Below the pieces are notes generated by a model, which made no database searches, was not told the DNA's origin, and saw only the letters and a list, made by a program, of their open reading frames with translations. Source: an uncultured virus (IMG/VR IMGVR_UViG_3300028797_000119) (taxonomy: Duplodnaviria > Heunggongvirae > Uroviricota > Caudoviricetes). From it: DNA of 64,000 nucleotides. The first letter of the stretch is position 1, and the number at the start of each line of letters is the position of its first letter. The stretch lies in the IMG/VR virus record IMGVR_UViG_3300028797_000119; one strand, given 5' to 3'. The translations under genes were made by a program, and so were the position numbers. Below, piece by piece: positions 10,724-63,491 of this stretch.

Positions 10724-10769
10724 TAGTTTTGTTTGCGTTAGTTATATTAAAAGCGAGCGGAAACCCGGA

Positions 10770-11327
10770 CTACCAGTCGATAGTCATGCGCTTTGATTTC
10801 GCCGAAGGGAAGTTTAAACGTCTGTACAGTATTTGACCCTTTACACGTTTGTCGTCGGATAGCGACCAGTCGATCTGCTGTTTAGGGATTTCGATACCAA
10901 CATAGTAAAACCGATGGTCATCCACGTTGTCGAAGTTGACCGCGTCGAAAAACCTGAACCCGGAATGACTAGCCAAGATGTCTGGACACCCGTTGACGCC
11001 AATCACTGTTACTGCCGGAGAATAGTCTCGGTTGTAATCATAATAACAGTCCAGCTTACCCTTGTTATCGGCAATCCTTACCAAGTGGTAGATGTATGTC
11101 TCCGGACATTCTAAGTTGTCGTTTGGTGATTCAGCGATTGACCCAAGATAGGTACATGCAGCCTTACCGTTTACGATGACGGGAAGTGTCGTCATGACAG
11201 ATACCGTGCTGGTACGCACGTCTTGTATGTCGATGCGAACGTCGCGCCGATCGAACGGCACTTTGACATGTTCAGCAAACGCCGTAATGGCAATGAACAG
11301 AACGATGAGAGATGCTAGTTTCTTCAT
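10770..11327 (-). CDS. secreted hypothetical protein
   Basis: signal peptide MKKLASLIVLFIAITAFA, AAGGAG RBS. Confidence 0.75.
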   Translation of the reverse strand: MKKLASLIVLFIAITAFAEHVKVPFDRRDVRIDIQDVRTSTVSVMTTLPVIVNGKAACTYLGSIAESPNDNLECPETYIYHLVRIADNKGKLDCYYDYNRDYSPAVTVIGVNGCPDILASHSGFRFFDAVNFDNVDDHRFYYVGIEIPKQQIDWSLSDDKRVKGQILYRRLNFPSAKSKRMTIDW

Positions 11328-11428
11328 AATTGCTCCTTTGTTTTCGGTTTGATTGATGGTTAGGGGAAACCCGGACTAAAAGAAAACCGTCCGATAGGTC
11401 GGACGGTCTTTAAAAACGTATCATCTGC

Positions 11429-12115
11429 TTAATTTCGGAAACTATTGATTTCTCGTTCATTAAGGACGATAGGGTTCTTGCATCCCGTCATGCCTTGAGT
11501 CCGCAGCGTACATTCATCAGGGTCGTAGTCGATTGCTCCAGTGGACGCAGTGCCAACTCCGATTTCTTTACCGGGATTTTCCTTGGACATATCGTTGAAG
11601 GTCTGTCCGTTAGGCATCTGGAACACCTTGCCCGTTACGGTCGAGTAATATTTCCTACCATCTGGAGACACCAACCATCCAAAGTCGGTGTGCGGATGCT
11701 TGTCGATTTCGGACAACGGCATTCCTCTATAAGAGTCGCTGTACACTCCCGGCTTTTCCGAAGCCGGTACAAACTTCCAACCTTTTTCGCGAAGTTCATC
11801 GCCGAAATAGTCGAAGTTTTGTACCTTGCTAACCGTATAGTCGTTCTTGAGCTGCTGGTCGGCACTGTTTTTCAAGTCGATGACAGTCTGCTTACCGCTG
11901 TCAAGAGCCTTGTCAACTGGGTTACCAGCCATGTGGTTGACACCGAGTGCACCAAGAGCGCCCATAGCGCCGATTCCAATAGTACGGCCTAGCTTGCCTT
12001 CGAGCTGTGCCTTTCGTTCACACACGTCGTAAAGCTTCTTAACCGAGTCTACCAAAGTCTGGCGTTCTGGTGTAGTCTTCAGTTTCTCTAATTCGTCCAA
12101 GAATTCTTGGTTCAT
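11429..12115 (-). CDS. hypothetical protein, possibly late/virion
   Basis: ORF with upstream TATAAACT and downstream terminator hairpin (about 11386-11408). Confidence 0.7.
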   Translation of the reverse strand: MNQEFLDELEKLKTTPERQTLVDSVKKLYDVCERKAQLEGKLGRTIGIGAMGALGALGVNHMAGNPVDKALDSGKQTVIDLKNSADQQLKNDYTVSKVQNFDYFGDELREKGWKFVPASEKPGVYSDSYRGMPLSEIDKHPHTDFGWLVSPDGRKYYSTVTGKVFQMPNGQTFNDMSKENPGKEIGVGTASTGAIDYDPDECTLRTQGMTGCKNPIVLNEREINSFRN

Positions 12116-12154
12116 AAAAACCGCCTCTCTGTTACAAAAGGCAGTTTATAAGTT

Positions 12155-12442
12155 TTACTTTTTCTGTGAGTTACGAATCGTGAGCCAGCAGTCCCAACGA
12201 GGCTTACGCACGATTGCGTTTGTCGCCTTGTCCAAGGAAGTGTCAATCTGGAGAAGCGCTCTCATGTTACCAGCATCGTCATAGATGGTGGCCGATTCGA
12301 TCGTGCCGAATTTTTTCTCACCTACACGAGCTTTCAGTTTTTCCTGAAGCATAAGACCCGCCTTGAACGGGGTATCGGTTTCGACTTCACCGATTACGAG
12401 TTCCGGCATGTTTTCGAGTTTGAATTTAAGCAAATATTTCAT
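12155..12442 (-). CDS. hypothetical protein
   Basis: AGGAG RBS. Confidence 0.65.
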   Translation of the reverse strand: MKYLLKFKLENMPELVIGEVETDTPFKAGLMLQEKLKARVGEKKFGTIESATIYDDAGNMRALLQIDTSLDKATNAIVRKPRWDCWLTIRNSQKK

Positions 12443-12746
12443 TGTTGACTCCTGTAAAATATATTTTTCCATCGGAAGTTTCCTCGATTTTGAAATCAAG
12501 CGTTCTCGGCCAGTAGTCGCTGACGACGACTCCGTTGTTCTTAGTCAGTTCGGCGCTAACTATGGCAATCGTGTAAGACCCCGGTCGAACGGCGACAATT
12601 TTCTTGCCTTCGTTGAGCAGTTCTGGGATTGTCTTGTCGACCGAAGAAATCAATACGCTTTCGCGATATGCCCACGGCTTCCCTGGGATTAACATGTTTT
12701 CGACAACATTCGCTACATTGGAAAGTGTCAGTCTCAGTACAATCAT
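12426..12746 (-). CDS. hypothetical protein
   Basis: AAGGAGG RBS. Confidence 0.65.
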   Translation of the reverse strand: MIVLRLTLSNVANVVENMLIPGKPWAYRESVLISSVDKTIPELLNEGKKIVAVRPGSYTIAIVSAELTKNNGVVVSDYWPRTLDFKIEETSDGKIYFTGVNNEIFA

Positions 12747-12756
12747 GATAGCCTCC

Positions 12757-13155: not shown

Positions 13156-13222
13156 GATTAAACTCCTTTTATTTTTAGTTTCCGTCATACAGATGACGCG
13201 CAAGGGGAAACCCGGACTAATA

Positions 13223-13522
13223 CTATGCAGTGTGTACACGGTATTCCATTACGGAACGCAATATGTATTGTTGGGCTTCTTGGGAGTCTTTGCATTTCTT
13301 CGAAACCTTATCAGTTGATAGCGTGATGGGCATATCGCTTGACAAATCGAATTCGATCTTGATTTTGAAGTCTGGGGCAAACTTATCCGAAACCACGAAA
13401 CTGTTCGGTCCGTTGCAACATTCGATGGACAAGTTAGTCCCGTGGGCGATTTCAGTAAGTGTCGCCGACGCGCTAAGATAGGCGTCCAGCGTATTGTCAT
13501 CAATTGAGATATGCTTGCCCAT
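13223..13522 (-). CDS. hypothetical protein
   Basis: GGAGG RBS. Confidence 0.65.
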   Translation of the reverse strand: MGKHISIDDNTLDAYLSASATLTEIAHGTNLSIECCNGPNSFVVSDKFAPDFKIKIEFDLSSDMPITLSTDKVSKKCKDSQEAQQYILRSVMEYRVHTA

Positions 13523-16547: not shown

Positions 16548-16577
16548 ATTTACTCCTTGGTTACACAGTACCGATGG

Positions 16578-16841
16578 CTAGATAAGGGAAGCCCGGATGA
16601 CCCTGAACAATTTCCTCGTCAGCTTCTTGTTCATACAGGTCCAGCTACGGCGGTACGAGCAGAACATCAGGTAGGCCGCCGCGACCATAAAGATGCCGTA
16701 GATTAGCTTGGACAGTTCGAACGAGCATCCGGCGAGCTGCGCGGCATAACTGATGAACATACCGATCGAGGCTAGGCCGAGCATCGTGAGCAGACCGACC
16801 GCATACATAATGGTTACGGATATACCGAAGGCGAGTTTCAT
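16578..16841 (-). CDS. membrane protein
   Basis: GGAG RBS, two hydrophobic segments. Confidence 0.6.
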   Translation of the reverse strand: MKLAFGISVTIMYAVGLLTMLGLASIGMFISYAAQLAGCSFELSKLIYGIFMVAAAYLMFCSYRRSWTCMNKKLTRKLFRVIRASLI

Positions 16842-17588: not shown

Positions 17589-17679
17589 TTAGTTCTCCCT
17601 GATGATTGGTTATCCATTGCTAAGTATAGCAATTTATTAAAGAAAAGGGGACGCCCGGAGCGTCCCACATTAGTGTTTT

Positions 17680-19147: not shown

Positions 19148-19227
19148 AATCAGCTCCTTGTGTAGGGTGAATGAAGAACGAGGGGACGCCCGGACACACT
19201 ATAGGCATCCCCTCGCCATCGACGGAA

Positions 19228-20280: not shown

Positions 20281-20363
20281 ATTTAACTCCTTTTGGTTAT
20301 GTATGACAGATACAGAACTGGGGGAAGCCCGGCCTCCCCCAGTCTATTCTATCTCAGATGGAT

Positions 20364-21210: not shown

Positions 21211-21278
21211 ATTGACTCCTTTGTTTACGTTTGGCGGATGGATGGTAAAGGGAACCCCGGCTGAATGCCGAACAGTCC

Positions 21279-22568: not shown

Positions 22569-22623
22569 ATTATCTCCTGTTTACGTCCGAAATATAGCAA
22601 TGAAGGGGACACCCGGCAATAGG

Positions 22624-23310
22624 TTAATCATTACCTCTCACGAAGTACGAATCATCATCGCTTCTGGACAGCTTCGCAGGGAGATCGATTATTGCGAAAT
22701 TGGTCGGATTCAAATCAATCGCATCATTCGGACAGCACCCATCCGCGATTTCGACTTCGTTCGGCACGATGTACATATCCACATCGTTCCCACGGTCAAT
22801 AATCAACAGATTCGCCTTAGCCTCGTCCAGAACCTTCTTCAAGGCCACCGCCTTTTCGGAAATCTTCGTGGTCAAATCGTCGGAAATCTTGCCATAGATG
22901 GCTTCGGCTTCGACCGATTTCACGCTGTGAACGATGTTGTAGATAGCGTTGAGCGTCTGGCTAAATTCACCGTCACTGAGAATGTTTGCACTTGGGATCT
23001 GCGATGAAATTGTGTTATCCTTGGTATAGATGCACAACCGGACTTCGTTCTTGACAGTGAACGAAATGTCGTATTCAAACCACTTACCGTCAAGCATAAC
23101 CTCGCCTCTAAAACGGCGACCGTCAAGAGGTTCTTCGTAGGCAATCTGCTTGATTTCCTTGGTTTCGCAGAAACGACCTGTCACTCGACCGCCAAACGCG
23201 GTGAGGATGCCGTTAGACAATACAGCTTCCATCTGCTGAATATAGCTAGACAAATCCACGGTGTTATCGGTCTGGGACATCAATTCGATGATGGTATGCT
23301 TAAAATCCAT
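22624..23310 (-). CDS. hypothetical protein
   Basis: AAGGAG RBS, junction element. Confidence 0.75.
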   Translation of the reverse strand: MDFKHTIIELMSQTDNTVDLSSYIQQMEAVLSNGILTAFGGRVTGRFCETKEIKQIAYEEPLDGRRFRGEVMLDGKWFEYDISFTVKNEVRLCIYTKDNTISSQIPSANILSDGEFSQTLNAIYNIVHSVKSVEAEAIYGKISDDLTTKISEKAVALKKVLDEAKANLLIIDRGNDVDMYIVPNEVEIADGCCPNDAIDLNPTNFAIIDLPAKLSRSDDDSYFVRGND

Positions 23311-23377
23311 TTTAGACTCCTTGTTGGTTGTGTAGATCCGATACGAGAAAAGGGGAAGCCCGGCTCCCCCCTATGTA

Positions 23378-23617
23378 TTACTTCCGTTCCGACCTTAATT
23401 CCTTCAGCCGTTGGTAGATTTCTTGTTCCTTTGCGTACAAAAGGTTACGGAGTGAGTCGTTTTCGGCCTCAAGTTCGGCGACCTTTTTCTTGTAAGGCGT
23501 TATCCAAGTTTCGTCGTACGCTTCGCGATATTTCTGTGCGCCAAACCCGGCGGCGAATAGAGCGACAACGACGATTATAAGAACCCAAGTAACCTTGTCT
23601 GGATGTCCTTTGAACAT
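23378..23617 (-). CDS. small TM/coiled-coil protein
   Basis: TM then coiled coil. Confidence 0.6.
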   Translation of the reverse strand: MFKGHPDKVTWVLIIVVVALFAAGFGAQKYREAYDETWITPYKKKVAELEAENDSLRNLLYAKEQEIYQRLKELRSERK

Positions 23618-24376: not shown

Positions 24377-24446
24377 TATTGACTCCTTTTGGTTGTATAG
24401 CGGTTATGGAGAACCAGGGGAAGCCCGGACAGTTCTAGTTAATCGG

Positions 24447-45440: not shown

Positions 45441-45470
45441 TAACAAATATAGCAAATGAAAATTATTTTG

Positions 45471-48660: not shown

Positions 48661-48742
48661 TTTTGAACTCCTTGTTGGTTGGTATAGAAAAAATAAAAAG
48701 GGAAGGTAAGCCCGGACGGTGCCGGGCAGTTCCCAGAGTTTT

Positions 48743-49237: not shown

Positions 49238-49306
49238 TGTGAACTCCTTTCTGGTTTGGTATATGGGAAATGACCAGTCTGGGGACGCCCGGACCGGTCT
49301 GGACAG

Positions 49307-49747
49307 TTACTTCACAGTTCGGCTGCCGTGCCATTCGATACCGAGCTTCTTCGCCAGTCGGCGAGCGGCTTGGTATTCTGGGCAGCGGCTGTTGTCGCCG
49401 TGGTCCCAGGATGCGATCATACCGTGCTGCTGCAGAACGGAGAGGAACACCTTGATAACCACGTCGTACGGTTCTCGACAGGTCTTGCAGAAACGCCAGC
49501 TGTCGATGCCAATACGCTGGTTAACGTCGTCTTCCTGTTCGAGGCTGAAGTTGAACGTGTCGAAACACGGTTTACCGTAGATACGGATGTGTTTCTGGTT
49601 GATGTAGTACGAGAGCTTCTGGTCGTCGGTCTGTTTGGCGTTGTATGCCTCGACGACCTTGATCAACTGGTCGACCATCAGCTGCGGGAATGCGCTGACT
49701 TCGCCGTTCTCGACTTTCTCGCTCGGTACCCAAGAATTAACGTACAT
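49307..49747 (-). CDS. phage-type hypothetical protein
   Basis: FCKTCREPYDVVI motif; start refined; junction element. Confidence 0.75.
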   Translation of the reverse strand: MYVNSWVPSEKVENGEVSAFPQLMVDQLIKVVEAYNAKQTDDQKLSYYINQKHIRIYGKPCFDTFNFSLEQEDDVNQRIGIDSWRFCKTCREPYDVVIKVFLSVLQQHGMIASWDHGDNSRCPEYQAARRLAKKLGIEWHGSRTVK

Positions 49748-50021
49748 AATGAACTCCTTTTGGTTGGTATAGGAAAAATGGACGGTCTGGGGAGACCCGG
49801 TCACCAGCAGAAAGTGGATCCTACCAGTCTGAACGGCTGGTTGCCTTTCCAGTGTGGAAGCTTCTGGGAATCCTCGGCTACCAGCCGGGCGGCTTCCAGA
49901 TAATTTTCCGGAACAGTGAACGAGTTTTGGTGGTTTCTGGCGCACTGGGCTACCTTCTGGAGGATCACTGTGCGTTTCTGGTCGAGTTCGTGGTCTTCTG
50001 GCATAAATGTCCTCAAAAATG

Positions 50022-50175: not shown

Positions 50176-50224
50176 GGCTCAAATATAAAAACTTATATCG
50201 GGGCTGTCAAGGTATGCTGGAAAA

Positions 50225-50818: not shown

Positions 50819-50887
50819 TTTGAATCTCCTTGTTGTTTGGTATAGGATCAATAGCCAGTCTGGGGAAACCCGGCTATCCAGAGCCAG

Positions 50888-51514
50888 TTAGGTGTCGCCG
50901 TAGCGATCCCAAGTAAATTTGGCGTAGTCGTGTGCGTTGTCGGCCTCGAAGGGGGAACCGTCGAGGACGGAACCGCTGAAGTAGGTGTTGACCTCGTTCC
51001 AGAAGTCTTCGAACGTGATCGCGCTGGAATTATCGTGCAATTCAATAATTTTTGTCTTTCCAAGGTATTCGGCGAGCGTCTTGCTGGTGATCTTTTCGCC
51101 GTCGTGCCAGTGGGCGGAGAAGTATTCGATGATCTCGTCGGCCATGCTGCCCAGAGCGTCGCGCTTGAGCATATCGGCGAGATCCTTGTTGGCGGCGTCG
51201 AGCCACTTGTCGGCTGGTAGCTTGGCGTAATCGCCATCGACCCACTTTTTGGCTAGCGCGTCGCAGAGGCTCCAGCGGTATTCCATCATTTCGGAATGGC
51301 GGTCGTCGAGCTGTTCGTCAGATTCTTCTGAAGCTTCGCGGAAGTCGAGGTGTTCAGAAAGCATTCTGGACATCGTGTTGAGCTTGACTTCGTCGTCGCT
51401 CAAAGGTTCGTCGTTCTGGTCGATCACTTCGCTGCGGTTGTTGTCGTAACCGTCGTTACAAAAGTAGAGGCCGTTCTGGAGGCAAGATTCGTTGAGTTCC
51501 TTGTGAGAAAGCAT
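50888..51514 (-). CDS. acidic hypothetical protein
   Basis: junction element. Confidence 0.75.
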   Translation of the reverse strand: MLSHKELNESCLQNGLYFCNDGYDNNRSEVIDQNDEPLSDDEVKLNTMSRMLSEHLDFREASEESDEQLDDRHSEMMEYRWSLCDALAKKWVDGDYAKLPADKWLDAANKDLADMLKRDALGSMADEIIEYFSAHWHDGEKITSKTLAEYLGKTKIIELHDNSSAITFEDFWNEVNTYFSGSVLDGSPFEADNAHDYAKFTWDRYGDT

Positions 51515-51594
51515 TTTAAACTCCTTTGTTTGGTATAGAAAAAATATCCGGGCTGGGGAAGCCCGGCCCAGACCTGACAGTCCGGAAAAATTAT

Positions 51595-52810: not shown

Positions 52811-52888
52811 TTGGATAACTCCTTTTAGTTGGTTGTTTTGTGTATAGTGTTTATACATCGCTGGGGGAAACCCGGACGGATCCGGTCA

Positions 52889-53278
52889 TTACGGTCGCCC
52901 GATACTCTCCACCAGCTGCTTTGCCTTATCGGCGATTTTGTCGAACACGGCGTGGACGGACGTGGACGACAGTGAGAGGCTTGCAAGGTAGTCACGACCT
53001 TTGTGGACACCCATAGACAAGCTCCAGTTCTCGTTGATGTTCGGACGGTCGTCACGGCGGAGGTGAATAGTCAGCTCGTAACCTTCGGGAAGGTGCTTGA
53101 ACTGGTCGAAGGTGGCGATCGCGAGGTTGCACTCAGATCCAGGGGTGCGGTCGTACCAGAAGTCGCTCATTTCCTCGCCGTTGGCGGCGAAGTCCATCGA
53201 CAAGGCGTTCTTGAGGGGGTCGGCGTGGTCGAACGGTTCTCGACAGCGCAACATAGCTACAGAGGTGTAATTGCTCAT
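52889..53278 (-). CDS. hypothetical protein
   Basis: junction element. Confidence 0.75.
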   Translation of the reverse strand: MSNYTSVAMLRCREPFDHADPLKNALSMDFAANGEEMSDFWYDRTPGSECNLAIATFDQFKHLPEGYELTIHLRRDDRPNINENWSLSMGVHKGRDYLASLSLSSTSVHAVFDKIADKAKQLVESIGRP

Positions 53279-53414
53279 TGTTTAACTCCTTTTGGTTGGT
53301 ATATGACCGATAGCCGGTCTGGGGAATCCCGGATGGTTGCAGTCAGTGGCCTATGGCCAGATCGCCGTAAATAGGTGGGAGCTGGTCTGAACCAGTCCCA
53401 CCGTTGGTTAGTAC

Positions 53415-54227: not shown

Positions 54228-54299
54228 TTTGAATCTCCTTTTGGTTGGTATAGGAACAATGGGAAGGCCGGGGAAGCCCGACCAGTCCCAGACAGTCCC

Positions 54300-55111: not shown

Positions 55112-55173
55112 ATTGAACTCCTTTGGTTGGTATAGGATCAATAGCCGGACTGGGGAAGCCCGGCTAGTCCCAG

Positions 55174-55428
55174 TTAGTCGATCGAGGCGACCTTGATTGT
55201 TGACATCTGGTCGAGGCCGAGACGCTTGAGGTCGTCGATGCACTTGTCGTCGAACACGGCTTCGTGATGACCGTTATGGTACATATTGGCTTCGAGGTCT
55301 TCGATCTGGTCGAGGTCGATATCGCCGTCGAAAGTCCAAATCGGGTGATAGGGTCGTTTAAGTTCGCGGTTCGTGATTACGATGGGCTGGCGACCGTTCG
55401 TCACGTTCAGATAAGCTTTCCATGCCAT
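55174..55428 (-). CDS. hypothetical protein
   Basis: junction element. Confidence 0.75.
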   Translation of the reverse strand: MAWKAYLNVTNGRQPIVITNRELKRPYHPIWTFDGDIDLDQIEDLEANMYHNGHHEAVFDDKCIDDLKRLGLDQMSTIKVASID

Positions 55429-55482
55429 TTTGAATCTCCTTTAGGTTGGTATAGTGGTTATAGGAAACCAGGGGAAGCCCGG

Positions 55483-56181
55483 CTACTGCTGGACAGTAGC
55501 TTCGGGTTTCTTGGAGGGGTTGAGCCGTTCTCCGCGCTTGATGAGCGTTTCCAAGTTGCTCTTAGCGTCCCGGATTGCTCGCCAGTTCCCATCGATCGCC
55601 TTCAGCAATTCGTAGTCATCGGGACACTTGGCCTTCTTCCAATTCGTGAGAAGGTACTTTGTCATATCGTTAAAAGATTTTGCGGCCAAGATGACTTCTT
55701 CCTTGCGTTTCTTGAAATCGGCCTTGCGCTTGGCCTTGTCCGCCTTGATCCAGTCGGTAACATTCTTATAGAAGCCGAGGAAGCGGTCATAAATCTCGTC
55801 AAGCTGCTTGGTGGTCATAGTGTCGAACCAAGTCTTGTCCACCCCACGGGTCGGAAAGAGTGCGCGGTCCGCGCTGAATGTTTCCAAGTGTCCATCGACC
55901 ATCTTGCCGTTGAACCAACACATATGGGAATCCCAAGTGTCCAAGAAGATATAACGGCTGCTCTCGATGTACGGACGACCGTGATCGTGTACAGTGTCGC
56001 CTTGACGGATGTAGGACAAGTGGTGGAACTGCTTGTCATAGGGGTTATAGATAGACAAGGTGAGCATATACGGCCAGTCGTGCGGGTCGGTGATCTTGAA
56101 CTTCTTGGGATGCTTGGCGATGTACTTGCTAAGCGGCATTTCCAAGATCTGTTCTTTGGTGATTTTAACTTCTTCGTCCAT
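55483..56181 (-). CDS. hypothetical protein
   Basis: junction element. Confidence 0.75.
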   Translation of the reverse strand: MDEEVKITKEQILEMPLSKYIAKHPKKFKITDPHDWPYMLTLSIYNPYDKQFHHLSYIRQGDTVHDHGRPYIESSRYIFLDTWDSHMCWFNGKMVDGHLETFSADRALFPTRGVDKTWFDTMTTKQLDEIYDRFLGFYKNVTDWIKADKAKRKADFKKRKEEVILAAKSFNDMTKYLLTNWKKAKCPDDYELLKAIDGNWRAIRDAKSNLETLIKRGERLNPSKKPEATVQQ

Positions 56182-56246
56182 ATTAACTCCTTTTGGTTGG
56201 TATAGAAAAAATATCCGGGCTGGGGAAGCCCGGACACCCGGAGACA

Positions 56247-56801
56247 TTACTTCTCCTTAATCACCCTGATACAAAGTTTTTCGTTGCCGTTCTCGAACGT
56301 GTAGCCGTCCAAGCAGTCGTCGCGGGTCACCTTGTCTTGGTCGCTGTTGCATTCTCGGATAGTGTCGTTTACAATATCCGCAACCGCGTCGGCGGCGTCT
56401 TCGCGAGAATCGTAGATGTGGGGGTCTTCCACAATTTCGTCGCCGTCTTCGAAGTGGTGGAAACCGCTCAGGAAGAACTTGCCCGGTTCCTTTTTAGTAA
56501 CGACTTCGCCACCGACGATAGACGCAAATTCCTCAGCGTCGTCCTTGTTGGGCAAGTGGATCGTGAGGAAGTTCTGTTCGTAGAAGTCATCGAACGAATT
56601 GTCGTCCACCTCGATAACAAAGCCGGGGTCGTTCTTGGCCTTGTCCATATCGAAAGCTGTATCGTCTTCTGGTTCGGTGTCGTCGGGATAGCGTTCGTGG
56701 AGGAACTTTCTGGCAGCGTCTGAATCGGAGATGCGAGTAACTGCGTCGCCGAGGAAGCTGTCTACGTCATCATATTCGTTGGTGTGGGTGCTGATAGCCA
56801 T
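56247..56801 (-). CDS. very acidic protein
   Basis: junction element, D/E-rich. Confidence 0.75.
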   Translation of the reverse strand: MAISTHTNEYDDVDSFLGDAVTRISDSDAARKFLHERYPDDTEPEDDTAFDMDKAKNDPGFVIEVDDNSFDDFYEQNFLTIHLPNKDDAEEFASIVGGEVVTKKEPGKFFLSGFHHFEDGDEIVEDPHIYDSREDAADAVADIVNDTIRECNSDQDKVTRDDCLDGYTFENGNEKLCIRVIKEK

Positions 56802-56854
56802 TTTGAAACTCCTTTGGTTGGTATAGTGGTTATGGCAAACCAAGGGAAACCCGG

Positions 56855-57274
56855 CTACTTCGAGCCAGTTTTCCCACAGTACGCTCCGTACAGAGCGGTT
56901 TCGGACAGACTGTAGCTGTCGTGGCCGGTACGAGGCGGATAGTAGTCGAGACAGACTTCGGTGCCGCGCTGGCGAACCGTCCACCACTCCTTGCACTTCG
57001 CGCACTGGCAACTGGCCTCTATATAGGGGTCTTGGGGGAGTGCCTTGCCGCGCTCCCAATTGGTGGACATCACGGACATAGACACTTCGTTGGGGTCGGC
57101 CTTGCCGCCACAGTACGGACAAGTGTCGCCGTCCTGGATCGCCTTCAGAGCGATTGTGACGAGGTGTACCGGCTTTCCGAGATAGTAGCCGTCCTTTGCG
57201 ACTGCCCAGCAGTTCTTATAGTAGCGGGGCCTCGTCTTTCCAAACTGCTTGTTGATTTCCTTTGACCACAGCAT
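56855..57274 (-). CDS. Zn-finger protein
   Basis: CPYCGG...CAKC; junction element. Confidence 0.7.
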   Translation of the reverse strand: MLWSKEINKQFGKTRPRYYKNCWAVAKDGYYLGKPVHLVTIALKAIQDGDTCPYCGGKADPNEVSMSVMSTNWERGKALPQDPYIEASCQCAKCKEWWTVRQRGTEVCLDYYPPRTGHDSYSLSETALYGAYCGKTGSK

Positions 57275-57449
57275 TGTAGCCTCCTTTTGGTTGGTATAGA
57301 ACAAATAGCCGACCGGGGGAAACCCGATCGGCCACAGTTAGTGGACGGCTCCGTCAGGCTTGCCTCAGCCGTCTGGCAGCCGTCCGTTCAAATAAAGTGG
57401 TGACTGGGAGCACCCCTACCCCCAGCCACCTTAGCTACCAACCACGGAG

Positions 57450-59375: not shown

Positions 59376-59460
59376 ATTAACTCCTTGTTTTGGTTGGCTG
59401 TCCTAAATTAGTTCTTGCATAGGGGAAATGGCTGGGCTGGGGACGCCCGGCCAGTTCCAG

Positions 59461-59760
59461 TTAGTCGATCGAGTTCACATTGATAGGCCAGTGTGTCTGT
59501 TTACGGCGAATCTTGCCACATTTCGTGCAACGGTCAACCCAGTAGCGTTGATAACCCCAGCCCCAGCGGCCTTCTTGATGGTCACAAGTGCCGCTTTCAA
59601 TCTGTTCCCAATGATGGTCACAAATGTGGAACAGCTTCTTGAGCCATTTGATAATCTGAACGGCGAGGTTTTCAGAGCCGTTCATACCGCCTTCGACACG
59701 GCGGACAGCACAAGAGCCTCGAATGATTGCGTCGGTGAGTTCGTTGGTCTTCATTTCCAC
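59461..59760 (-). CDS. small Cys/His protein
   Basis: CDHHW...CTKCGK. Confidence 0.55.
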   Translation of the reverse strand: MEMKTNELTDAIIRGSCAVRRVEGGMNGSENLAVQIIKWLKKLFHICDHHWEQIESGTCDHQEGRWGWGYQRYWVDRCTKCGKIRRKQTHWPINVNSID

Positions 59761-60087: not shown

Positions 60088-60151
60088 TTTGAATCTCCTT
60101 TTGGTTGGTATAAAAAGAATGGGCAGTCCGGGGAAGCCCGGACCGGTCCAG

Positions 60152-60634
60152 TTAGTTACATGACATCATCGAATGACCCATGCAGAATGAAGCTACTTTC
60201 TCCACGAAACCTAGCGACAGTAAGTGTTCCTTTACATCCGAGCAGAAACTTTTGTATGCTTTCGATTTAATATCGTCAGTCATTACTGTGTGATAAGTTT
60301 CTTTCAAAGCAATCGGTATACTGTACTTCGTGGCATACTCCTTGACAACACTCCGGCATACGGATGCAACAGTTGTTTCGAACGGATCCTGTTCATCAGC
60401 TGACCATAATTCATGCGACACGTCAGATGTTCTGATAACCTCCGTACTAGACACCGGTTCCGATGGGCTGGATTCGGGCGGAGGGGGCTGAATCAAGCCA
60501 GCATGCGATGAAGAACTGGGGGGTATCGCCAAGTTAGCACTGGACGTGATTTGGTCATCGTCAACATAAGTAGGAACGTCGTCACATGCGCAGAGACACA
60601 TGACCGCAAGTAATAATAAAACGATTTTTTTCAT
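60152..60634 (-). CDS. putative lipoprotein with Ser/Pro linker
   Basis: MKKIVLLLLAVMCLCA-CDD, SSSS/PPPP. Confidence 0.7.
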   Translation of the reverse strand: MKKIVLLLLAVMCLCACDDVPTYVDDDQITSSANLAIPPSSSSHAGLIQPPPPESSPSEPVSSTEVIRTSDVSHELWSADEQDPFETTVASVCRSVVKEYATKYSIPIALKETYHTVMTDDIKSKAYKSFCSDVKEHLLSLGFVEKVASFCMGHSMMSCN

Positions 60635-60701
60635 GTTTTCTCCTTGTTTTTGTGTAAAAACGATATCCAGACCGGGGAAGCCCGGATATATTATTCCAGT
60701 C

Positions 60702-61163: not shown

Positions 61164-61240
61164 ATTAACTCCTTTGTGGTTGGTTTTGTCTTGTATAGGG
61201 GTGATACGGTGACCGGGGAGACCCGGCCACCACCAGCCAG

Positions 61241-61783
61241 TTAGAGGCTGTCAACCAAGGCGATGACTTGCTTTTCCCATTCCAAGGCGGCCAGCATAAA
61301 TTCCTTTGAGTTGACATAGTGTCGGCGGTCGTATGCGTTATCGCTGTCGGCGATGCAGTTGCAACTGAATCTGTCCTTGTGATTGTCAAAGCGAATCCAT
61401 TCGCCTTTACAGTTCATCATAGTACGGTGAGGGTCACCATAGCCTACGGCTGGCGCATGGACGCCAATACCAAGATGGCTCGTATCGTCGAGTTCTCGAT
61501 ACTCGTACGCACCGAATGACATCTTTTCTTCCTTGTTGGGAATGGGGATTTCCGGAAGCTTCACCAGCTTGGAAGCTTGTTCGGCCAGCAGAGACAAGTA
61601 GGGGACGCGCTTGGCGAAGTTCTTGACCATTTCTTGGAATTCCTTGGTTTCTTCGTCGTGAGCCTTCTTAACCGCCTTGTCGTGTTCTTCCTTGGCGGTT
61701 ACCAGTTGGTTGAGCTTGGTGAGTCTCGTACCCTCGGCCTTCTTGATTTCAGCGACAAGGTCGATTTTTTTCTTAGTAGCCAT
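61241..61783 (-). CDS. hypothetical protein
   Basis: junction element. Confidence 0.75.
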   Translation of the reverse strand: MATKKKIDLVAEIKKAEGTRLTKLNQLVTAKEEHDKAVKKAHDEETKEFQEMVKNFAKRVPYLSLLAEQASKLVKLPEIPIPNKEEKMSFGAYEYRELDDTSHLGIGVHAPAVGYGDPHRTMMNCKGEWIRFDNHKDRFSCNCIADSDNAYDRRHYVNSKEFMLAALEWEKQVIALVDSL

Positions 61784-61853
61784 TTTTTAACTCCTTGTGG
61801 TTGGTATAGAGACAATAACCGGGCTGGGGAAGCCCGGTCCGGTTCAGACAGTC

Positions 61854-62192
61854 CTACGCGAGGCGGCTGTACACTTCAGCCATCGTGCGCCCACACGTGG
61901 CAAGCTTGGAGAGCAACGACTGGAGTTCCAGCAGCGTCGTGTCTTCGCGGTATTCGATGCTCTTGGTGTTCAAGGTCTTGCGCTTCTGACTGATGCCGTT
62001 AATCCATACGATCTTGTAGGTGATTCGAGTGGCTCGGTACTTCACCTCGACGCGGACTTTCTCGACGTTCAAGGCGAACCGCTTGTTAATGGGGTATTCG
62101 ACGGCGTATTCCTTGTTCGTGGAATCGTCGCTTACTGGTTTCATGCCGCAGTCGAAGGCGGCAAGCTTGAATTTTTCTTCAAAGGCGGACAT
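61854..62192 (-). CDS. hypothetical protein
   Basis: AGGA RBS. Confidence 0.7.
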   Translation of the reverse strand: MSAFEEKFKLAAFDCGMKPVSDDSTNKEYAVEYPINKRFALNVEKVRVEVKYRATRITYKIVWINGISQKRKTLNTKSIEYREDTTLLELQSLLSKLATCGRTMAEVYSRLA

Positions 62193-62281
62193 ATTATCTT
62201 CCTGTTATGCGTTTCTTGGTTGGTTTGACAATCTTGGTGCTGTTCTTACTCATTATCGTTCCTTTTCGTCGAAATGTAAAA

Positions 62282-62977
62282 TTAAACCACAAAATTTTTC
62301 ACAAGGTTCTTGGTTTCAGTCGTCGTGAGCTTGAAACCCCTGAGCTTCGGCCAAATCGAACGGCCACGACGCTGTACGCCCACCTTCTTGGCCGTGAAAG
62401 TCAATTTACCGCCGTGCCAGTGAGAAACAATTCTCGTGTCGAGGTTGTAGTGGCAAATATTTTCGCAGCCGAAAAAAGGTCTGTGGTGGTTGATGGCGTC
62501 GCCTTGGGTGCCGACCGTGTGGTCAATCTCGAACGACCCACATTCCCTAAAGTCCACTCCGCTCACTTGGATGACGACTGGGATGTTGGCCGTCGGCTGT
62601 CCGGCGAGGATGCATCTGATGCGAACGTGGGTGTACAAGTCTTGTCCAGTGAACTGGTGGCCGTTCACCGTTTCTGTACGGTGCTTGTACATTTCCAGCG
62701 TTTTCTTGTCGAGCTTTTCGCGGAGGTAGTCGGCGATTGTGTAGCCGATCCATTCCTTAAATTCGCGGTCGGATTCGAGACGGACGAGACGGCAAATGCG
62801 CTGGGGCTTCTTTGTCCGTTTCAAGTTGTCGAGGACGCTCATACCGTTGTAGGTCGCCTCGATTTCGTCGAACTTCATTTCCAATATGCTCCGATAGAGC
62901 TGGTCGGTGTCGTTTGCCACATAGCAGTAACGAACGCGGTTGCCTTTCTGTAGGCTGATAATTCCTCGTGTACCCAT
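62282..62977 (-). CDS. hypothetical protein
   Basis: junction element. Confidence 0.75.
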   Translation of the reverse strand: MGTRGIISLQKGNRVRYCYVANDTDQLYRSILEMKFDEIEATYNGMSVLDNLKRTKKPQRICRLVRLESDREFKEWIGYTIADYLREKLDKKTLEMYKHRTETVNGHQFTGQDLYTHVRIRCILAGQPTANIPVVIQVSGVDFRECGSFEIDHTVGTQGDAINHHRPFFGCENICHYNLDTRIVSHWHGGKLTFTAKKVGVQRRGRSIWPKLRGFKLTTTETKNLVKNFVV

Positions 62978-63035
62978 TGGTTTGTCTCCTTTTGATATAG
63001 GGGTGATAGCCGGACCGGGGAAGCCCGGCCAGTCG

Positions 63036-63344
63036 CTAGAAGTTCACCTTGTAATCCTTGTGGCCTTTTTCGCCAAAGATCTTGATGCGGTCGATTTTCT
63101 TACGGTTGCCGCAGATGGAGGCAGCAATTTCTACGAGCTTGCTCTTGCTCTTCTTGCACTTGAAAGCGAGGTCGTCGTAGGTGTTGATGGTCTTGCACAC
63201 GCACTTCTTACCCGTGTAGATATCAATGCACACGATATCGAGGCGGTGATTCTGCAAGTGGCAGAGGATGTTCGCGACTTCGCGAACCTTGTCTGAACGG
63301 GTGCAGCTGATTTCTTCGTTCTTGAGATAGTTGGGGAATTTCAT
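63036..63344 (-). CDS. basic hypothetical protein
   Basis: junction element. Confidence 0.7.
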   Translation of the reverse strand: MKFPNYLKNEEISCTRSDKVREVANILCHLQNHRLDIVCIDIYTGKKCVCKTINTYDDLAFKCKKSKSKLVEIAASICGNRKKIDRIKIFGEKGHKDYKVNF

Positions 63345-63491
63345 CGTGGTCTCCTTGTGGTTGGTATAAAAAGTATAGACACGCTGGGGAAACCCGGACG
63401 ACCGGAGCGAGTGACTGTACAGAAATGAAATATAAGAACACGGTGAGCATTTGTCAATACCCACCGTGGGTTAAAAGTTAAATTTTACATT

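What the first reader, a model, noticed from the sequence alone, without database searches (positions are those of the whole stretch)
10758..63397. About 50 same-orientation gene-junction elements format the region as single-gene cassettes
Seen: on -, stop codon, 0-20 nt, CCGGGNNTCCCC, then 17 nt in the roughly dozen copies I counted (e.g. 24417, 47866, 51555, 53321, 54270, 55151, 55471, 56222, 60130, 61826, 63386), then TATAC(C/A), AACCAAAAGGAG and ATG. The core is a GGG-GANN-CCC hairpin on the + (template) strand whose outer arms differ between copies yet often stay complementary (ATATCCGG..CCGGATAT near 47855, TAGCCGG..CCGGCTA near 55142, GACCAGTC..GACCGGTC near 49272, GCCGACCGGG..CCCGATCGGC near 57308). 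Inference: fixed 17-nt spacing suggests a phage-specific -35/-10 promoter in front of nearly every gene; arm covariation suggests a second role as an extruded DNA hairpin (compare N4 virion RNAP promoters), an RNA processing or stability signal, or a recombination site that lets genes be gained and shuffled like cassettes.
Basis: partly seen in the sequence, partly recalled or inferred. Interest (0 to 1): 0.85.

Follow-up and report, generated by a model that had tools for sequence, protein, structure and literature searches.

The report
Repeated stop-and-start cassettes, rumen huge phage
A huge uncultured cattle-gut phage puts the same roughly 55-letter signal, probably a private promoter often fused to a stop hairpin, in front of some 50 units of small unknown genes, and related phages have reshuffled those genes at the signal, much like the known PeSL cassettes of T4-type phages.

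Summary
The core CCGGGNNTCCCC (one mismatch allowed) occurs 53 times on the - strand between 10757 and 63397, against about 3 expected. One hit is a coding match and one copy is truncated. The core sits in a rigid linear module: an ACT box, the core, 9 nt, AT, 6 nt, then TAYRYA. A ribosome site and ATG follow at variable distance.

Hairpins are real but optional (21 of 53 copies) and form in three registers. G.U outnumbers A.C pairs 67:14 on the gene-sense strand, and hairpins go with T-rich tails. They therefore act in the transcript, terminator-like, not as a template-strand DNA hairpin.

The module recurs in the gene arrays of three 300-355 kb relatives that share few genes with the window. 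One relative has a different core and cleaner arm covariation. Gene order is shuffled between relatives, and homology breaks at the elements.

The relatives have no recombinase and no phage RNA polymerase. They do carry an RpoD-like sigma behind a host-type promoter.

Best reading (0.6): composite terminator plus phage-specific promoter cassettes. This is a new variant of PeSL/PmSL cassettes, exchanged by homologous recombination.

The parts
10731..10784 (-). element copy, core 10757-10768 CCGGGTTTCCGC, box at p30 AACGCA; a sigma-70 consensus promoter follows at 10695-10723
   Evidence: hairpin z 0.3
11337..11390 (-). element copy, core 11363-11374, box at p30 GAAAAC
   Evidence: hairpin z 0.8
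13178..13231 (-). element copy, core 13204-13215, box at p30 GACGGA
   Evidence: hairpin z 1.5
16559..16612 (-). element copy, core 16585-16596, box TGTGTA
   Evidence: z 0.1
17621..17674 (-). element copy, core 17647-17658; upstream GGGACG pairs with the core (register C), followed by TTTTCTTT
   Evidence: z -3.7
19156..19209 (-). element copy, core 19182-19193, box TACACA
   Evidence: z 0.7
20295..20348 (-). element copy, core 20321-20332, box TACATA, register C hairpin
   Evidence: z -5.5
21223..21276 (-). element copy, core 21249-21260, box AACGTA
   Evidence: z -1.1
22579..22632 (-). element copy, core 22605-22616, box GACGTA
   Evidence: z 0.9
23326..23379 (-). element copy, core 23352-23363, box TACACA, register C hairpin followed by TTTTCT
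   Evidence: z -1.7
24391..24444 (-). element copy, core 24417-24428, box TATACA
   Evidence: z -1.2
25343..25396 (-). element copy, core 25369-25380, box GAGGTA
   Evidence: z -5.6
26008..26061 (-). element copy, core 26034-26045, box TATACA
   Evidence: z 0.1
26797..26850 (-). element copy, core 26823-26834, box TACCTA; lies just past the CRISPR array
   Evidence: z -0.7
30348..30401 (-). element copy, core 30374-30385 (GCGGG...), box ATACAT
   Evidence: z 0.8
34933..34986 (-). element copy, core 34959-34970 (shifted CCGGGGTTTCCC), in front of Cas3
   Evidence: z 0.5
36083..36136 (-). element copy, core 36109-36120, box GATGCA
   Evidence: z -4.1
36753..36806 (-). element copy, core 36779-36790, box CGTGTA
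   Evidence: z -1.9
38034..38087 (-). element copy, core 38060-38071, box TATGTA
   Evidence: z -1.0
38540..38593 (-). element copy, core 38566-38577, box TGTGTA
   Evidence: z -2.4
39064..39117 (-). truncated copy, core 39090-39101 runs straight into the ribosome site of the HTH gene 38593-39072
   Evidence: z 0.6
39962..40015 (-). element copy, core 39988-39999, box TATGTA
   Evidence: z -0.5
40568..40621 (-). element copy, core 40594-40605, box TATGTA
   Evidence: z 0.5
41078..41131 (-). element copy, core 41104-41115, box TATGTA
   Evidence: z -1.3
41379..41432 (-). element copy, core 41405-41416, box TATGTA
   Evidence: z -1.1
42333..42386 (-). element copy, core 42359-42370, box AGTGTT, long leader
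   Evidence: z -0.7
43456..43509 (-). element copy, core 43482-43493 (CCAC); a sigma-70 consensus promoter follows at 43421-43449
   Evidence: z -0.8
44301..44354 (-). element copy, core 44327-44338, box TATACA, register B hairpin
   Evidence: z -3.6
44664..44717 (-). element copy, core 44690-44701, box AGTGTA
   Evidence: z -1.8
45250..45303 (-). element copy, core 45276-45287, no box, no hairpin; lies downstream of the sigma-70 consensus promoter 45446-45474
   Evidence: z 0.4
46259..46312 (-). element copy, core 46285-46296, box TATACA, register A hairpin
   Evidence: z -5.5
46734..46787 (-). element copy, core 46760-46771, box TATACA, register A hairpin with G.U
   Evidence: z -6.0
47840..47893 (-). 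element copy, core 47866-47877, box TATACA, register B hairpin
   Evidence: z -3.6
49255..49308 (-). element copy, core 49281-49292, box TATACC, register A hairpin with G.U
   Evidence: z -4.2
49763..49816 (-). element copy, core 49789-49800, box TATACC
   Evidence: z 0.2
50836..50889 (-). element copy, core 50862-50873, box TATACC
   Evidence: z -1.3
51529..51582 (-). element copy, core 51555-51566, box TATACC, hairpin followed by ATATTTTTTC
   Evidence: z -3.6
52838..52891 (-). element copy, core 52864-52875, box TATACA
   Evidence: z 0.3
53295..53348 (-). element copy, core 53321-53332, box TATACC
   Evidence: z 0.6
54244..54297 (-). element copy, core 54270-54281 (TCGGG), box TATACC; heads the gene that is 83% identical (protein) in G006
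   Evidence: z -4.5
55126..55179 (-). element copy, core 55152-55163, box TATACC, register B hairpin with G.U
   Evidence: z -3.2
55445..55498 (-). element copy, core 55471-55482, box TATACC; a near-identical copy is in G002
   Evidence: z -1.1
56196..56249 (-). element copy, core 56222-56233, box TATACC, 13-pair hairpin followed by TTTCTATACC
   Evidence: z -4.1
56817..56870 (-). element copy, core 56843-56854, box TATACC; a near-identical copy is in G002
   Evidence: z -0.8
57290..57343 (-). element copy, core 57316-57327 (TCGGG), box TATACC, 13-pair hairpin
   Evidence: z -5.1
59413..59466 (-). element copy, core 59439-59450, box TATGCA, long leader to the methylase gene
   Evidence: z -3.0
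60104..60157 (-). element copy, core 60130-60141, box TATACC
   Evidence: z -3.1
60648..60701 (-). element copy, core 60674-60685, box TACACA, register B hairpin
   Evidence: z -2.6
61189..61242 (-). element copy, core 61215-61226, box TATACA
   Evidence: z -2.8
61800..61853 (-). element copy, core 61826-61837, box TATACC, register B hairpin; frequent joint site
   Evidence: z -3.1
62991..63044 (-). element copy, core 63017-63028, box TATATC
   Evidence: z -2.3
63360..63413 (-). element copy, core 63386-63397, box TATACC, no hairpin; lies just downstream of the sigma-70 consensus promoter 63429-63457
   Evidence: z -0.1
63429..63457 (-). context: TTGACA-N17-TATATT host-type promoter-like site
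50182..50210 (-). context: TTGACA-N17-TATATT host-type promoter-like site
45446..45474 (-). context: TTGACA-N17-TATATT host-type promoter-like site with a TG before the second hexamer
48657..48696 (-). degenerate copy not caught by the core pattern; it aligns to element copies of G001 and G002 and is a joint site

Best explanation
Each element is a composite 'stop and restart' transcription cassette of a huge phage, a variant of the PeSL/PmSL cassettes of T4-type phages.

Promoter module (inferred function). The constant part is a rigid linear DNA module, numbered p from the first C of the core on the - strand:
- an ACT box at p-15 to p-13;
- the core CCGGGYTTCCCC at p1-12;
- AT at p22-23;
- TAYRYA at p30-35.
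This has the geometry of a sigma-70-family promoter, with a -35-like box, 17 nt, then a -10-like box. Its sequence is not the host consensus, which the same phages use elsewhere (TTGACA-N17-TATATT). I infer that host RNA polymerase reads it only with a phage factor. The best candidate is the RpoD-like phage sigma with regions 2 and 4, whose gene in the relatives sits behind a host-type promoter. On this reading the array is a delayed class of private promoters. The transcript would start a few bases after the box, with a 10-30 nt leader carrying AACCAAAAGGAG.

Hairpin (structure shown, function inferred). In about 40% of copies the flanks have evolved to pair around or with the GC-rich core. 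The transcript of the upstream unit then ends in a stable hairpin followed by a T-rich tract. This would be an intrinsic terminator or 3' stabiliser that insulates neighbouring units.

Cassette exchange (pattern shown, mechanism inferred). The roughly 55-nt modules are far more alike than the genes between them. They serve as patches of homology at which the phage's own recombination system (UvsX-type) deletes, inserts and reorders cassettes within and between related phages.
For: - Enrichment and strand: 53 - strand hits against 3.06 expected.
- Rigid module: A22/T23 in 52 and 50 of 53 copies; T30/A31/T32 in 37, 44 and 37 of 53. The distance from p30 to the start codon varies from 17 to 40 nt.
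- The module keeps its spacing whichever hairpin register is used, and is intact in the 32 of 53 copies without a significant hairpin. It is therefore read as linear sequence.
- Host-type consensus promoters exist separately: 9 in the window, 30 in G001 and 18 in G006, with 0-0.1 expected. A T4-like late motif, TATAAACT, occurs 58 times in G001 against 10.7 expected, among structural genes. TATACAA followed by a ribosome site lies in the arrays for 17 of 20 such sites in G001 and 24 of 26 in G006. The element is thus a third, array-specific class.
- The relatives encode one sigma with regions 2 and 4, most like RpoD/RpoS. Its gene lies behind TTGCAT/TTGGAA-N17-TATATT. No phage RNA polymerase was found.
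- Hairpin:
  - 21 of 53 copies have z < -2.
  - Among G006's 75 copies, paired cells are 65.4% against 60.3% shuffled (0 of 500 shuffles reach it) and 43-48% when slid; both-side changes number 88 against 55.7 (0 of 500).
  - G.U against A.C on the sense strand is 67:14, summed over five sets.
  - T count in p22-29 is higher with a hairpin: 3.6 against 2.58 in the window (p = 0.012) and 4.29 against 2.51 in 77 metagenome copies (p = 2.5e-5).
  - 8 element hairpins pass a strict terminator scan of 44-64 kb.
- Cassette exchange:
  - Between the window and G001, blastn aligns only the elements and one 36-nt repeat, and 3 of 97 proteins match.
  - Homologues in G006 lie in shuffled order.
  - An 86% DNA island covers exactly one gene and ends 13 nt before its ATG.
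  - G002 carries window cassettes in another order.
  - 21 of 44 listed joint endpoints fall in elements that cover 8.6% of the stretch.
- PeSLs were shown experimentally to be promoter plus terminator, with crossovers between the -10 box and the ATG (PMC2839356 passages; PMC4122927 main text parts 1-2).
Against: - No transcript start or end was seen. The RNA runs are held only as contigs.
- The -10-like box lacks the T at its last position. In G002 it often reads TGTACC, which puts G where sigma-70-type factors need A (the requirement is recalled).
- The recognition helix of the phage sigma's region 4 is nearly identical in G001/G002 and G006, although their cores differ at 3-4 of 12 positions.
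- The window's own genome is not held, so its sigma was not seen.
- Only 8 of 25 copies in 44-64 kb meet a strict terminator rule. The excess of terminator-like sites overall is modest (39 against 27.2 +/- 6.3).
- Breakpoints at elements are also what any gene-wise mosaic would show, because nearly all intergenic DNA here is element. Repeats also attract split alignments.
- Copies are related by descent, so the p-values are rough.
Confidence: 0.6

Rival explanations
1. RNA-only punctuation. The array is transcribed as long RNAs from the few TTGACA-N17-TATATT promoters. The elements act only in the transcript, as terminator or attenuator hairpins, 3' stabilisers or endonuclease sites (for example cleavage in the AU after the hairpin). 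They would carry no promoter of their own.
For: - G.U against A.C is 67:14 on the sense strand.
- Hairpin and T-tract go together.
- Seven host-type promoters lie on the - strand inside the array region.
- The box at p30 is a poor match to a sigma-70 -10 element.
Against: - 32 of 53 copies have no significant hairpin yet keep the core, AT and box.
- The core-AT-box spacing is rigid and does not depend on where the hairpin ends: p12 in register C, p21 in registers A and B.
- Copies with strong hairpin-plus-T tracts every 0.3-1.3 kb would starve downstream genes without restarts.
- The two copies that follow a host-type promoter, directly (63386) or about 160 nt on (45276), lack hairpins.
Confidence: 0.2
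2. The core is the operator or docking site of a phage DNA-binding regulator (activator or repressor) other than sigma. Candidates include the small HTH proteins at 38593-39072 or 15759-16250. The regulator would switch the whole accessory array on or off, and the core differs between phage lineages because it co-evolves with that protein.
For: - The core is invariant within a genome but differs between lineages: CCGGGYTTCCCC in the window and G001, CCGGGGCTCCTC in G002, GGGRCTGCC in G006. The flanks stay the same.
- The sigma region-4 helix does not track the core.
- Two HTH proteins lie inside the array. One matches phrog_323 and Sigma70_r4_2.
- A 30%-identical homologue of 15759-16250 lies in G006's array.
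Against: - No homologue of either HTH protein was found in G001, although it has the same core as the window.
- G002 mixes two core types in one array.
- Nothing links these proteins to the site.
Confidence: 0.12
3. Integron-like site-specific recombination sites. The hairpins would be folded single-strand recombination sites at which a dedicated recombinase excises and inserts gene cassettes as circles.
For: - Same-orientation repeats lie between short gene units.
- Cassettes are shuffled between relatives.
- The hairpins have variable arms.
Against: - No tyrosine (PF00589) or serine (PF00239) recombinase in 0 of 3 relatives, and both controls rang.
- The centre is conserved and the arms are variable, the reverse of attC anatomy (attC anatomy recalled).
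- 32 of 53 copies cannot fold.
- Joints fall at various positions, from p-17 to p51, not at one point.
Confidence: 0.04
4. N4-type promoter. A DNA hairpin extruded on the template strand would be recognised by a virion-packaged phage RNA polymerase.
For: - There are hairpins with a conserved apex and variable stem.
- The element is confined to one arm of the genome, in G001 and G002 next to a contig end.
Against: - Wobble pairs favour the sense strand, not the template strand, 67:14.
- The hairpin centre lies about 25 nt upstream of the box, not about 12 nt before a start (N4 geometry recalled).
- No RNA polymerase was found by Pfam PF00940 or PF00562, by PHROGs on 83 ORFs, or by Pfam on 26 large unknown ORFs of G001. 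The PF00940 control rang nowhere, so that search is weak.
- 32 of 53 copies have no hairpin.
Confidence: 0.03

Closest known systems
PeSL (promoter-early stem-loop) cassettes of T4-type phages RB49/phi1, PST/T4 and nt-1/KVP40 (Arbiol et al. 2010, PMC2839356; Comeau et al. 2014, PMC4122927)
   Same: - Both are intergenic composites of a GGG-loop-CCC type stem-loop, a two-box promoter with a 17-nt spacer, a Shine-Dalgarno sequence and an ATG.
- Both sit densely between ORFan genes of a hyperplastic region.
- In both, copies are more conserved than the genes.
- Indels, replacements and reorderings between relatives map to them, with crossovers between the hairpin or -10 box and the ATG.
- The carrier G001 has T4-like replication and tail genes.
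   Different: - The promoter boxes are not sigma-70-like (TTCCCC / TATACC against TTGACA / TATAAT), although the same phages use perfect sigma-70 consensus sites elsewhere.
- The stem-loop does not lie upstream of the promoter. It encloses the -35-position box, in three alternative registers, and is absent from about 60% of copies.
- The apex differs between related phages.
- The arrays are larger: 52 copies in 53 kb here and about 75 in 62 kb in G006.
- Promoter and terminator activity and mini-circles are untested here.
PmSL (promoter-middle stem-loop) of Vibrio phage nt-1 (PMC4122927) and T4 middle promoters read through MotA/AsiA
   Same: Both have a stem-loop and a promoter whose -35 position holds a phage-specific box instead of the host -35, which implies a phage factor and a delayed class.
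   Different: - There is no TGCTT Mot box.
- The box is 12 nt long and ends 17 nt, not 11-13 nt (recalled), before the -10-like box.
- The -10-like box is not TAnnnT.
- MotA and AsiA homologues were not searched for.
Intrinsic (Rho-independent) terminators
   Same: In the hairpin-bearing copies, a GC-rich hairpin of 7-13 pairs with a 3-5 nt loop is followed by a T-rich tract on the sense strand.
   Different: - The apex sequence is conserved among copies.
- The T tract is often weak and overlaps the next unit's promoter-like box.
- Many copies have no hairpin.
Integron attC sites
   Same: Both are same-orientation repeats that can fold, lying between short gene cassettes that differ between relatives.
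   Different: - No integrase was found.
- The centre is conserved and the arms are variable.
- The elements carry expression signals.
- Breakpoints are spread over the element.

Membership tests
PeSL cassettes | Intergenic position between small, mostly ORFan genes of a hyperplastic region, all in the gene's orientation | tested here: met
   52 copies lie on the gene strand, a median of 14 nt after the upstream stop. Of 97 window ORFs, about 80 have no Pfam hit and most have no PHROG hit.
PeSL cassettes | Stem-loop (often G-run, loop, C-run) that can terminate upstream transcription, placed just upstream of the promoter | tested here: inconclusive
   A GGG-loop-CCC apex is present in all copies. 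A stable hairpin (z < -2) is present in 21 of 53. Wobble pairs favour the sense strand and the hairpin goes with a T tract. However, the hairpin overlaps the -35 position rather than preceding it, and termination was not measured.
PeSL cassettes | Strong sigma-70-like early promoter (near TTGACA-N17-TATAAT) | tested here: not met
   The 17-nt geometry is kept, but the boxes read TTCCCC and TATACC/TATGTA/TACACA. Perfect TTGACA-N17-TATA[AT]T sites occur separately: 9 in the window.
PeSL cassettes | Shine-Dalgarno sequence and start codon at the 3' end of the element | tested here: met
   AAGGAG and a start codon lie 17-40 nt after p30 in 43 of 53 copies.
PeSL cassettes | Indels, replacements and reorderings between related phages map to the elements | tested here: met
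   21 of 44 listed joint endpoints lie in elements (8.6% of the span). A single-gene 86% island is bounded by elements. Cassette order is shuffled in G006 and G002. Caveat: nearly all intergenic DNA here is element.
PeSL cassettes | Formation of cassette mini-circles by recombination between flanking elements | not testable with these tools
   Needs inverse PCR or raw long reads. Only contigs were served.
PmSL / T4 middle promoter | Mot box (TGCTT) about 12 nt upstream of a TAnnnT -10 box, read through MotA/AsiA | tested here: not met
   There is no TGCTT in the consensus. MotA and AsiA genes were not searched for.
Intrinsic terminator | GC-rich hairpin directly followed by a U-rich tract in the transcript | tested here: inconclusive
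   Eight element hairpins in 44-64 kb pass the strict scan. T-richness rises with hairpin strength. Many copies fail.
Integron attC | Neighbouring integron integrase (tyrosine recombinase) | tested here: not met
   PF00589 found in 0 of 3 relatives, with controls ringing in 14 of 14. There is no Pfam integrase among the 97 window ORFs.
Integron attC | Conserved inverted core sites at the ends with a variable centre | tested here: not met
   The reverse is seen: an invariant centre with variable, covarying arms. The attC anatomy is recalled.
N4 early promoter | Template-strand DNA hairpin read by a virion RNA polymerase | tested here: not met
   G.U against A.C is 67:14 in favour of the sense strand. 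No RNA polymerase gene was found in G001 or G002 (the PF00940 control was silent).

The most novel reading that the evidence does not exclude
The 12-nt box is the address of a private transcription code. A phage-made factor (the RpoD-like sigma, or a small region-4-like HTH protein) would read it as double-stranded DNA at the -35 position. The same letters, once transcribed, would form the apex of the preceding unit's terminator.

The box drifts between phage lineages (CCGGGYTTCCCC, CCGGGGCTCCTC, GGGRCTGCC) together with its reader. Cassettes would then be plug-and-play only among phages that share the code. That would make this a lineage-barcoded, self-insulating gene-exchange system, not just a reused promoter.
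Probability: 0.25. Interest if true: 0.7.

Novelty: new variant of a known kind. Interest (0 to 1): 0.5.

Why it matters
Huge phages carry long arms of small unknown genes, and it is unclear how these are expressed and exchanged. Here one compact signal seems to do three jobs: ending one unit, starting the next with a phage-private promoter, and providing the homology at which cassettes are swapped.

This gives a direct handle for annotating transcription units in uncultured rumen phages. It also points to which phage factor to test (the early-expressed RpoD-like sigma) and helps predict which phages can trade accessory genes, including a CRISPR-Cas locus embedded in the array.

It extends the PeSL idea from T4-type phages with sigma-70 promoters to 300-355 kb phages with a non-host promoter code. 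Notes from this scan report similar arrays in other huge phages, so the design may be general and not a curiosity.

Tried and rejected
- Fixed-register covariation in the window: mutual information over all column pairs gave only sub-class signals. I dropped it in favour of per-copy folds and the relative G006.
- First viral-contig scan: it had an off-by-one spacing and found nothing. It is void. The corrected scan is.
- megablast of 12 kb against GenBank phages: no match.
- Whole genome of the window: not held.
- Earlier notes by place and by sequence: none.
- Rfam: no family at gathering score.
- The CRISPR repeat is unrelated to the element.
- Sigma-54 reading of the TGGCAC in G006's upstream box: rejected, because GG is not conserved in the window (G at p-12 in 21 of 53) and the start would fall inside the hairpin.
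- The p30 box as the phage's general late promoter: rejected. TATACAA followed by a ribosome site is mostly confined to the arrays (17 of 20 such sites in G001, 24 of 26 in G006). Late genes carry TATAAACT instead.
- k-mer enrichment upstream of non-array genes: nothing clear. One regex of mine for the TTGCAA-TTCAAA class returned 0 and was mis-written.
- The element as a host sequence: 1 match in 185,579 species' genomes, which is chance level.
- G007 and G008 are AT-rich unrelated phages without the element.
- RNA contigs from two studies both stop at 52041 and at 61813, with unlike letters beyond. I read these as relatives diverging, not as transcript ends.
- Paper searches for this element in huge, jumbo or rumen phages listed nothing on it. 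I saw only listings and abstract starts.

Full report
THE OBSERVATION

The pattern CCGGGNNTCCCC, with up to one mismatch, occurs 56 times in the window. Of these, 53 are on the - strand between 10757 and 63397. A hundred dinucleotide-preserving shuffles gave a mean of 3.06 and at most 8.

Printed in register, the copies share far more than the core. I number positions p from the first C of the core, reading the - strand, which is the sense strand of the genes. The shared features are:
- an (A)ACT box at p-16 to p-13 (A at p-15 in 38 of 53);
- the core at p1-12;
- A22 and T23, in 52 and 50 of 53;
- T30, A31 and T32, in 37, 44 and 37 of 53;
- an A/C-rich leader with AAGGAG, then the start codon.

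One hit (61544) lies inside a gene and lacks everything else. One copy (39090) is truncated. A degenerate copy near 48,690 escapes the pattern.

The upstream stop codon lies a median of 14 nt before the core, and within 20 nt in 38 of 51 copies. By my script, 29 of 52 copies head a single gene, 11 head two, 9 three, 1 four and 1 five. The region is therefore formatted into short units, not strictly single genes.

THE HAIRPIN

Mutual information over all column pairs of the 53 copies shows no fixed-register pairing. Per-copy folding shows why. Stable hairpins exist, but in three registers:
- Register A: flanking arms close over a GGG-NNNN-CCC apex (for example 49281, 46760, 46285).
- Register B: the core itself is the 5' arm and pairs with a downstream AGYCCGG (for example 61826, 56222, 55152, 47866).
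- Register C: an upstream GGGGRAG pairs with CTTCCCC (for example 23352, 20321, 17647).

Against controls with shuffled arms and a fixed core, 21 of 53 copies fold better (z < -2). By region this is 16 of 27 at 43-64 kb, 2 of 11 at 34-43 kb and 3 of 15 at 10-31 kb. The other 32 keep the core, the AT and mostly the box. The hairpin is therefore an optional addition to a constant linear module.

Which strand folds? I chose copies by Watson-Crick pairs alone and counted the remaining cells. Sense-strand G.U against A.C came out as:
- 12:2 and 29:7 in 74 distinct metagenome copies (registers A and B);
- 4:2 and 15:1 in the window;
- 7:2 in the relative G006.

That sums to 67:14. A template-strand hairpin would give the opposite. 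Hairpin-bearing copies also have more T in p22-29: 3.6 against 2.58 in the window (p = 0.012) and 4.29 against 2.51 in 77 metagenome copies (p = 2.5e-5). Eight element hairpins in 44-64 kb pass a strict terminator scan.

So the hairpin works in the transcript and looks like an intrinsic terminator or 3' stabiliser of the upstream unit. The copies are related by descent, so these p-values are rough.

RELATIVES

The window has no megablast match in GenBank phages, and its genome is not held. A spaced pattern found the element in IMG/VR contigs.
- G001 (355,392 bp, 93% complete) has 18 exact cores, all forward, all at 338-354 kb.
- G002 (308,245 bp) has 8, all at 292-307 kb.
- With one mismatch allowed, G001 has 27 copies with the same anatomy.

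Between the window and G001, blastn aligns only the elements (75-92% over 50-83 nt) and one 36-nt repeat. Only 3 of 97 window proteins find a weak match. The signal is conserved and the genes are not.

A protein search then found G006 (348,092 bp, 91% complete) with an 83%-identical homologue of gene 53415-54227. G006 has no exact core at all. Yet it has about 75 copies of the same architecture over 232-295 kb, with GGGRCTGCC in place of the core. Aligned without gaps, the two cores share CGGGnnTnCC.

In G006 the arms pair mostly in one register. On 75 copies and 12 pairs:
- 65.4% of cells pair, against 60.3% in shuffles (0 of 500 reach it) and 43-48% when the partner is slid.
- Cells changed on both sides number 88 against 55.7 (0 of 500).
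- The covariation score is 0.238 against 0.173, and at most 0.150 when slid.

G002 uses a third apex, CCGGGGCTCCTCCGG(A/G)GCCCC, which is a hairpin in itself. It also carries window-type copies in its last 3 kb.

The strict pattern has 1 match in one genome each of 185,579 bacterial and archaeal species, which is chance level. It has matches on 96 loci in dozens of metagenome contigs, with multiples on one strand. Runs holding the window are labelled bovine gut metagenome (X3 and X4 were laid).

CASSETTE EXCHANGE

Of 97 window proteins, 29 have a match in G006. Those of the array fall in G006's array at 28-83% identity and in shuffled order.

The one 86%-identical DNA segment covers window 53430-54240. 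That is just gene 53415-54227, and it ends 13 nt upstream of the ATG. The flanks share only the element's architecture.

G002 holds window cassettes 56855, 56247 and 55483 at 78-94% DNA identity. They are followed by the homologue of 47577 and then of 59767, which is a different order with switches at elements.

Contigs of other samples laid on 44-64 kb give joints. Of those listed, 21 of 44 endpoints lie within elements that cover 8.6% of the stretch, and 8 of 22 joints have both ends in elements. The endpoints are mostly at p23-43, between the hairpin and the ribosome site. This is the zone in which PeSL crossovers were mapped (PMC2839356, passages).

Two caveats apply. Tables 5 and 5c were cut (37 and 8 rows not shown). 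Also, almost all intergenic DNA here is element, so 'breaks at gene borders' and 'breaks at elements' cannot be told apart.

No tyrosine or serine recombinase was found in G001, G002 or G006. A UvsX-type recombinase is present in G001. Exchange by general homologous recombination is therefore the simple reading.

WHO READS THE ELEMENT

G001 is a distant T4-like myovirus. PHROGs on its ORFs found PolB, UvsX, gp32-like SSB, clamp loader, Dda, SbcCD, NrdD, major head, portal, terminase and baseplate wedge. Pfam added the gp15 tail-sheath stabiliser.

No RNA polymerase was found. PF00562 gave none while its controls rang. PF00940 gave none, but its controls were silent. PHROGs on 83 ORFs of at least 330 aa and Pfam on 26 large unknown ORFs also gave none.

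G001, G002 and G006 each encode one 270-aa sigma with regions 2 and 4. It is 60-72% identical among them and scores best against RpoD and RpoS models. Its gene lies behind TTGCAT or TTGGAA, 17 nt, TATATT. It should therefore be made early by the host enzyme.

These phages show three promoter-like classes:
- Perfect TTGACA-N17-TATA[AT]T: 30 in G001, 18 in G006 and 9 in the window, with about 0 expected.
- TATAAACT before structural genes: 58 in G001 against 10.7 expected. It is close to T4's late TATAAATA, which I quote from memory.
- The array element.

TATACAA followed by a ribosome site lies in the arrays for 17 of 20 such sites in G001 and 24 of 26 in G006.

The element's two boxes at 17 nt suit a sigma with both regions. 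I therefore infer that it is a phage-factor-dependent promoter class. The -10-like box also lacks the usual last T, and in G002 it often has G at its second position. An unidentified activator or repressor therefore remains possible.

The box varies along the array:
- TATACC or TATACA at 43-63 kb;
- TATGTA at 35-42 kb;
- TACACA, TACATA or ACGTAA at 10-30 kb.

G006 shows similar variants along its own array. Whether these are temporal classes or strength classes is open.

COMPARISON WITH WHAT IS KNOWN

PeSLs of T4-type phages are intergenic composites of a stem-loop (often G-run, loop, C-run), a sigma-70-like early promoter, a Shine-Dalgarno sequence and an ATG. They lie in hyperplastic regions. 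They were shown to act as promoter and terminator and to recombine into mini-circles. nt-1 also has Mot-box versions, called PmSLs. My sources are PMC2839356 (abstract and passages) and PMC4122927 (main text parts 1-2).

The present element works like these, and several features match:
- position;
- the GGG-loop-CCC apex;
- the SD and ATG;
- association with indels.

One defining feature was tested and not met: the promoter is not sigma-70-like. The layout also differs, because the hairpin encloses the -35-position box instead of preceding it. I therefore file it as a new variant, not a member.

My searches for such an element in huge, jumbo or rumen phages listed nothing on it (listings only). 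Notes of this scan describe PeSL-like arrays with private promoters in several other huge phages. Those are unchecked AI notes on other genomes. They agree with my reading, and they lower the surprise.

VERDICT

The template-strand DNA hairpin is not supported.

Shown:
- the anatomy, its rigidity and its enrichment;
- RNA-strand bias of the hairpins and their link to T tracts;
- conservation across phages with unrelated genes;
- lineage-specific apex variants;
- shuffling with breaks at the elements.

Inferred:
- promoter activity;
- the phage sigma as reader;
- termination;
- recombination within the elements as the cause of the shuffling.

Noticed in passing
window 26,900-28,715 and 28,980-34,912: A phage-borne CRISPR-Cas locus sits inside the array. 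There are about 28 repeats of 29 nt (period 61-62), with two repeat variants and a 450-nt interruption near 27,290-27,690. Next to it lie Cas1 (28980-29804), three ORFs with no family hit (29791-30333, 30396-31361, 31424-32467) and Cas3 (32555-34912). Element copies flank the locus at 26823, 30374 and 34959.
   Followed up: partly
window 13,914-15,694 and 27,642-27,675; G001 243,825-243,860: An IS200/IS605-type pair: a Y1 transposase at 13914-14318 (-) and a TnpB/Cas12f-like gene at 14382-15677 (+). A 36-nt stretch at the TnpB gene's end (15659-15694) recurs inside the interruption of the CRISPR array, and next to a TnpB-like gene in G001 at 94-97% identity.
   Followed up: no
window 57,450-59,375: A C5 cytosine methylase gene is interrupted by a Hint/intein domain. 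Contigs of two other DNA runs and one RNA run join 58115 to 59170 with 13 other letters between, which is an intein-less allele in relatives.
   Followed up: partly
window 503, 2667 (+); 10723, 13828, 16323, 43449, 45474, 50210, 63457 (-): Nine perfect TTGACA-N17-TATA[AT]T sites, with none expected by shuffling. Two of them start at p45-46 of element copies (43482 and 10757), giving tandem signals. In G006 two hybrid copies embed TTGACA and TATATT inside the element itself (L033, ATGs at 853 and 4347).
   Followed up: partly
G001 (L015-L032), e.g. upstream of 110577, 120314, 136239, 96030: The motif (TA)TATAAACT lies before baseplate, tail-sheath-stabiliser and other structural genes. It occurs 58 times in G001 against 10.7 expected and resembles the T4 late promoter. 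Replication genes (PolB, UvsX, SSB, NrdD) and the sigma gene share TTGCAA-TTCAAAYT-...-TAnnnT.
   Followed up: partly
window 38,593-39,072 and 15,759-16,250: Two small HTH proteins lie in the array. The first matches phrog_323 'transcriptional regulator, D5-like', Sigma70_r4_2 and, weakly, GcrA. It is preceded by the only truncated element copy (39090). A 30%-identical homologue of the second lies in G006's array.
   Followed up: partly
window 1-8,150: The + strand block converges on the array. It holds a DUF2828/DUF7788 protein (phrog_850 'RNA-binding protein', 2717-4198), an MFS transporter (6167-7297; 81% identical protein in G006) and a thymidylate-kinase-like ORF. An FtsK/SpoIIIE-like ATPase at 9168-10676 ends the - strand array.
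   Followed up: no
L056 (G002 288,001-308,000): One array mixes two core types. CCGGGGCTCCTC copies, without the ACT box, fill 288-305 kb. Window-type copies fill the last 3 kb, where the DNA is 78-94% identical to window 55.4-57.3 kb.
   Followed up: partly
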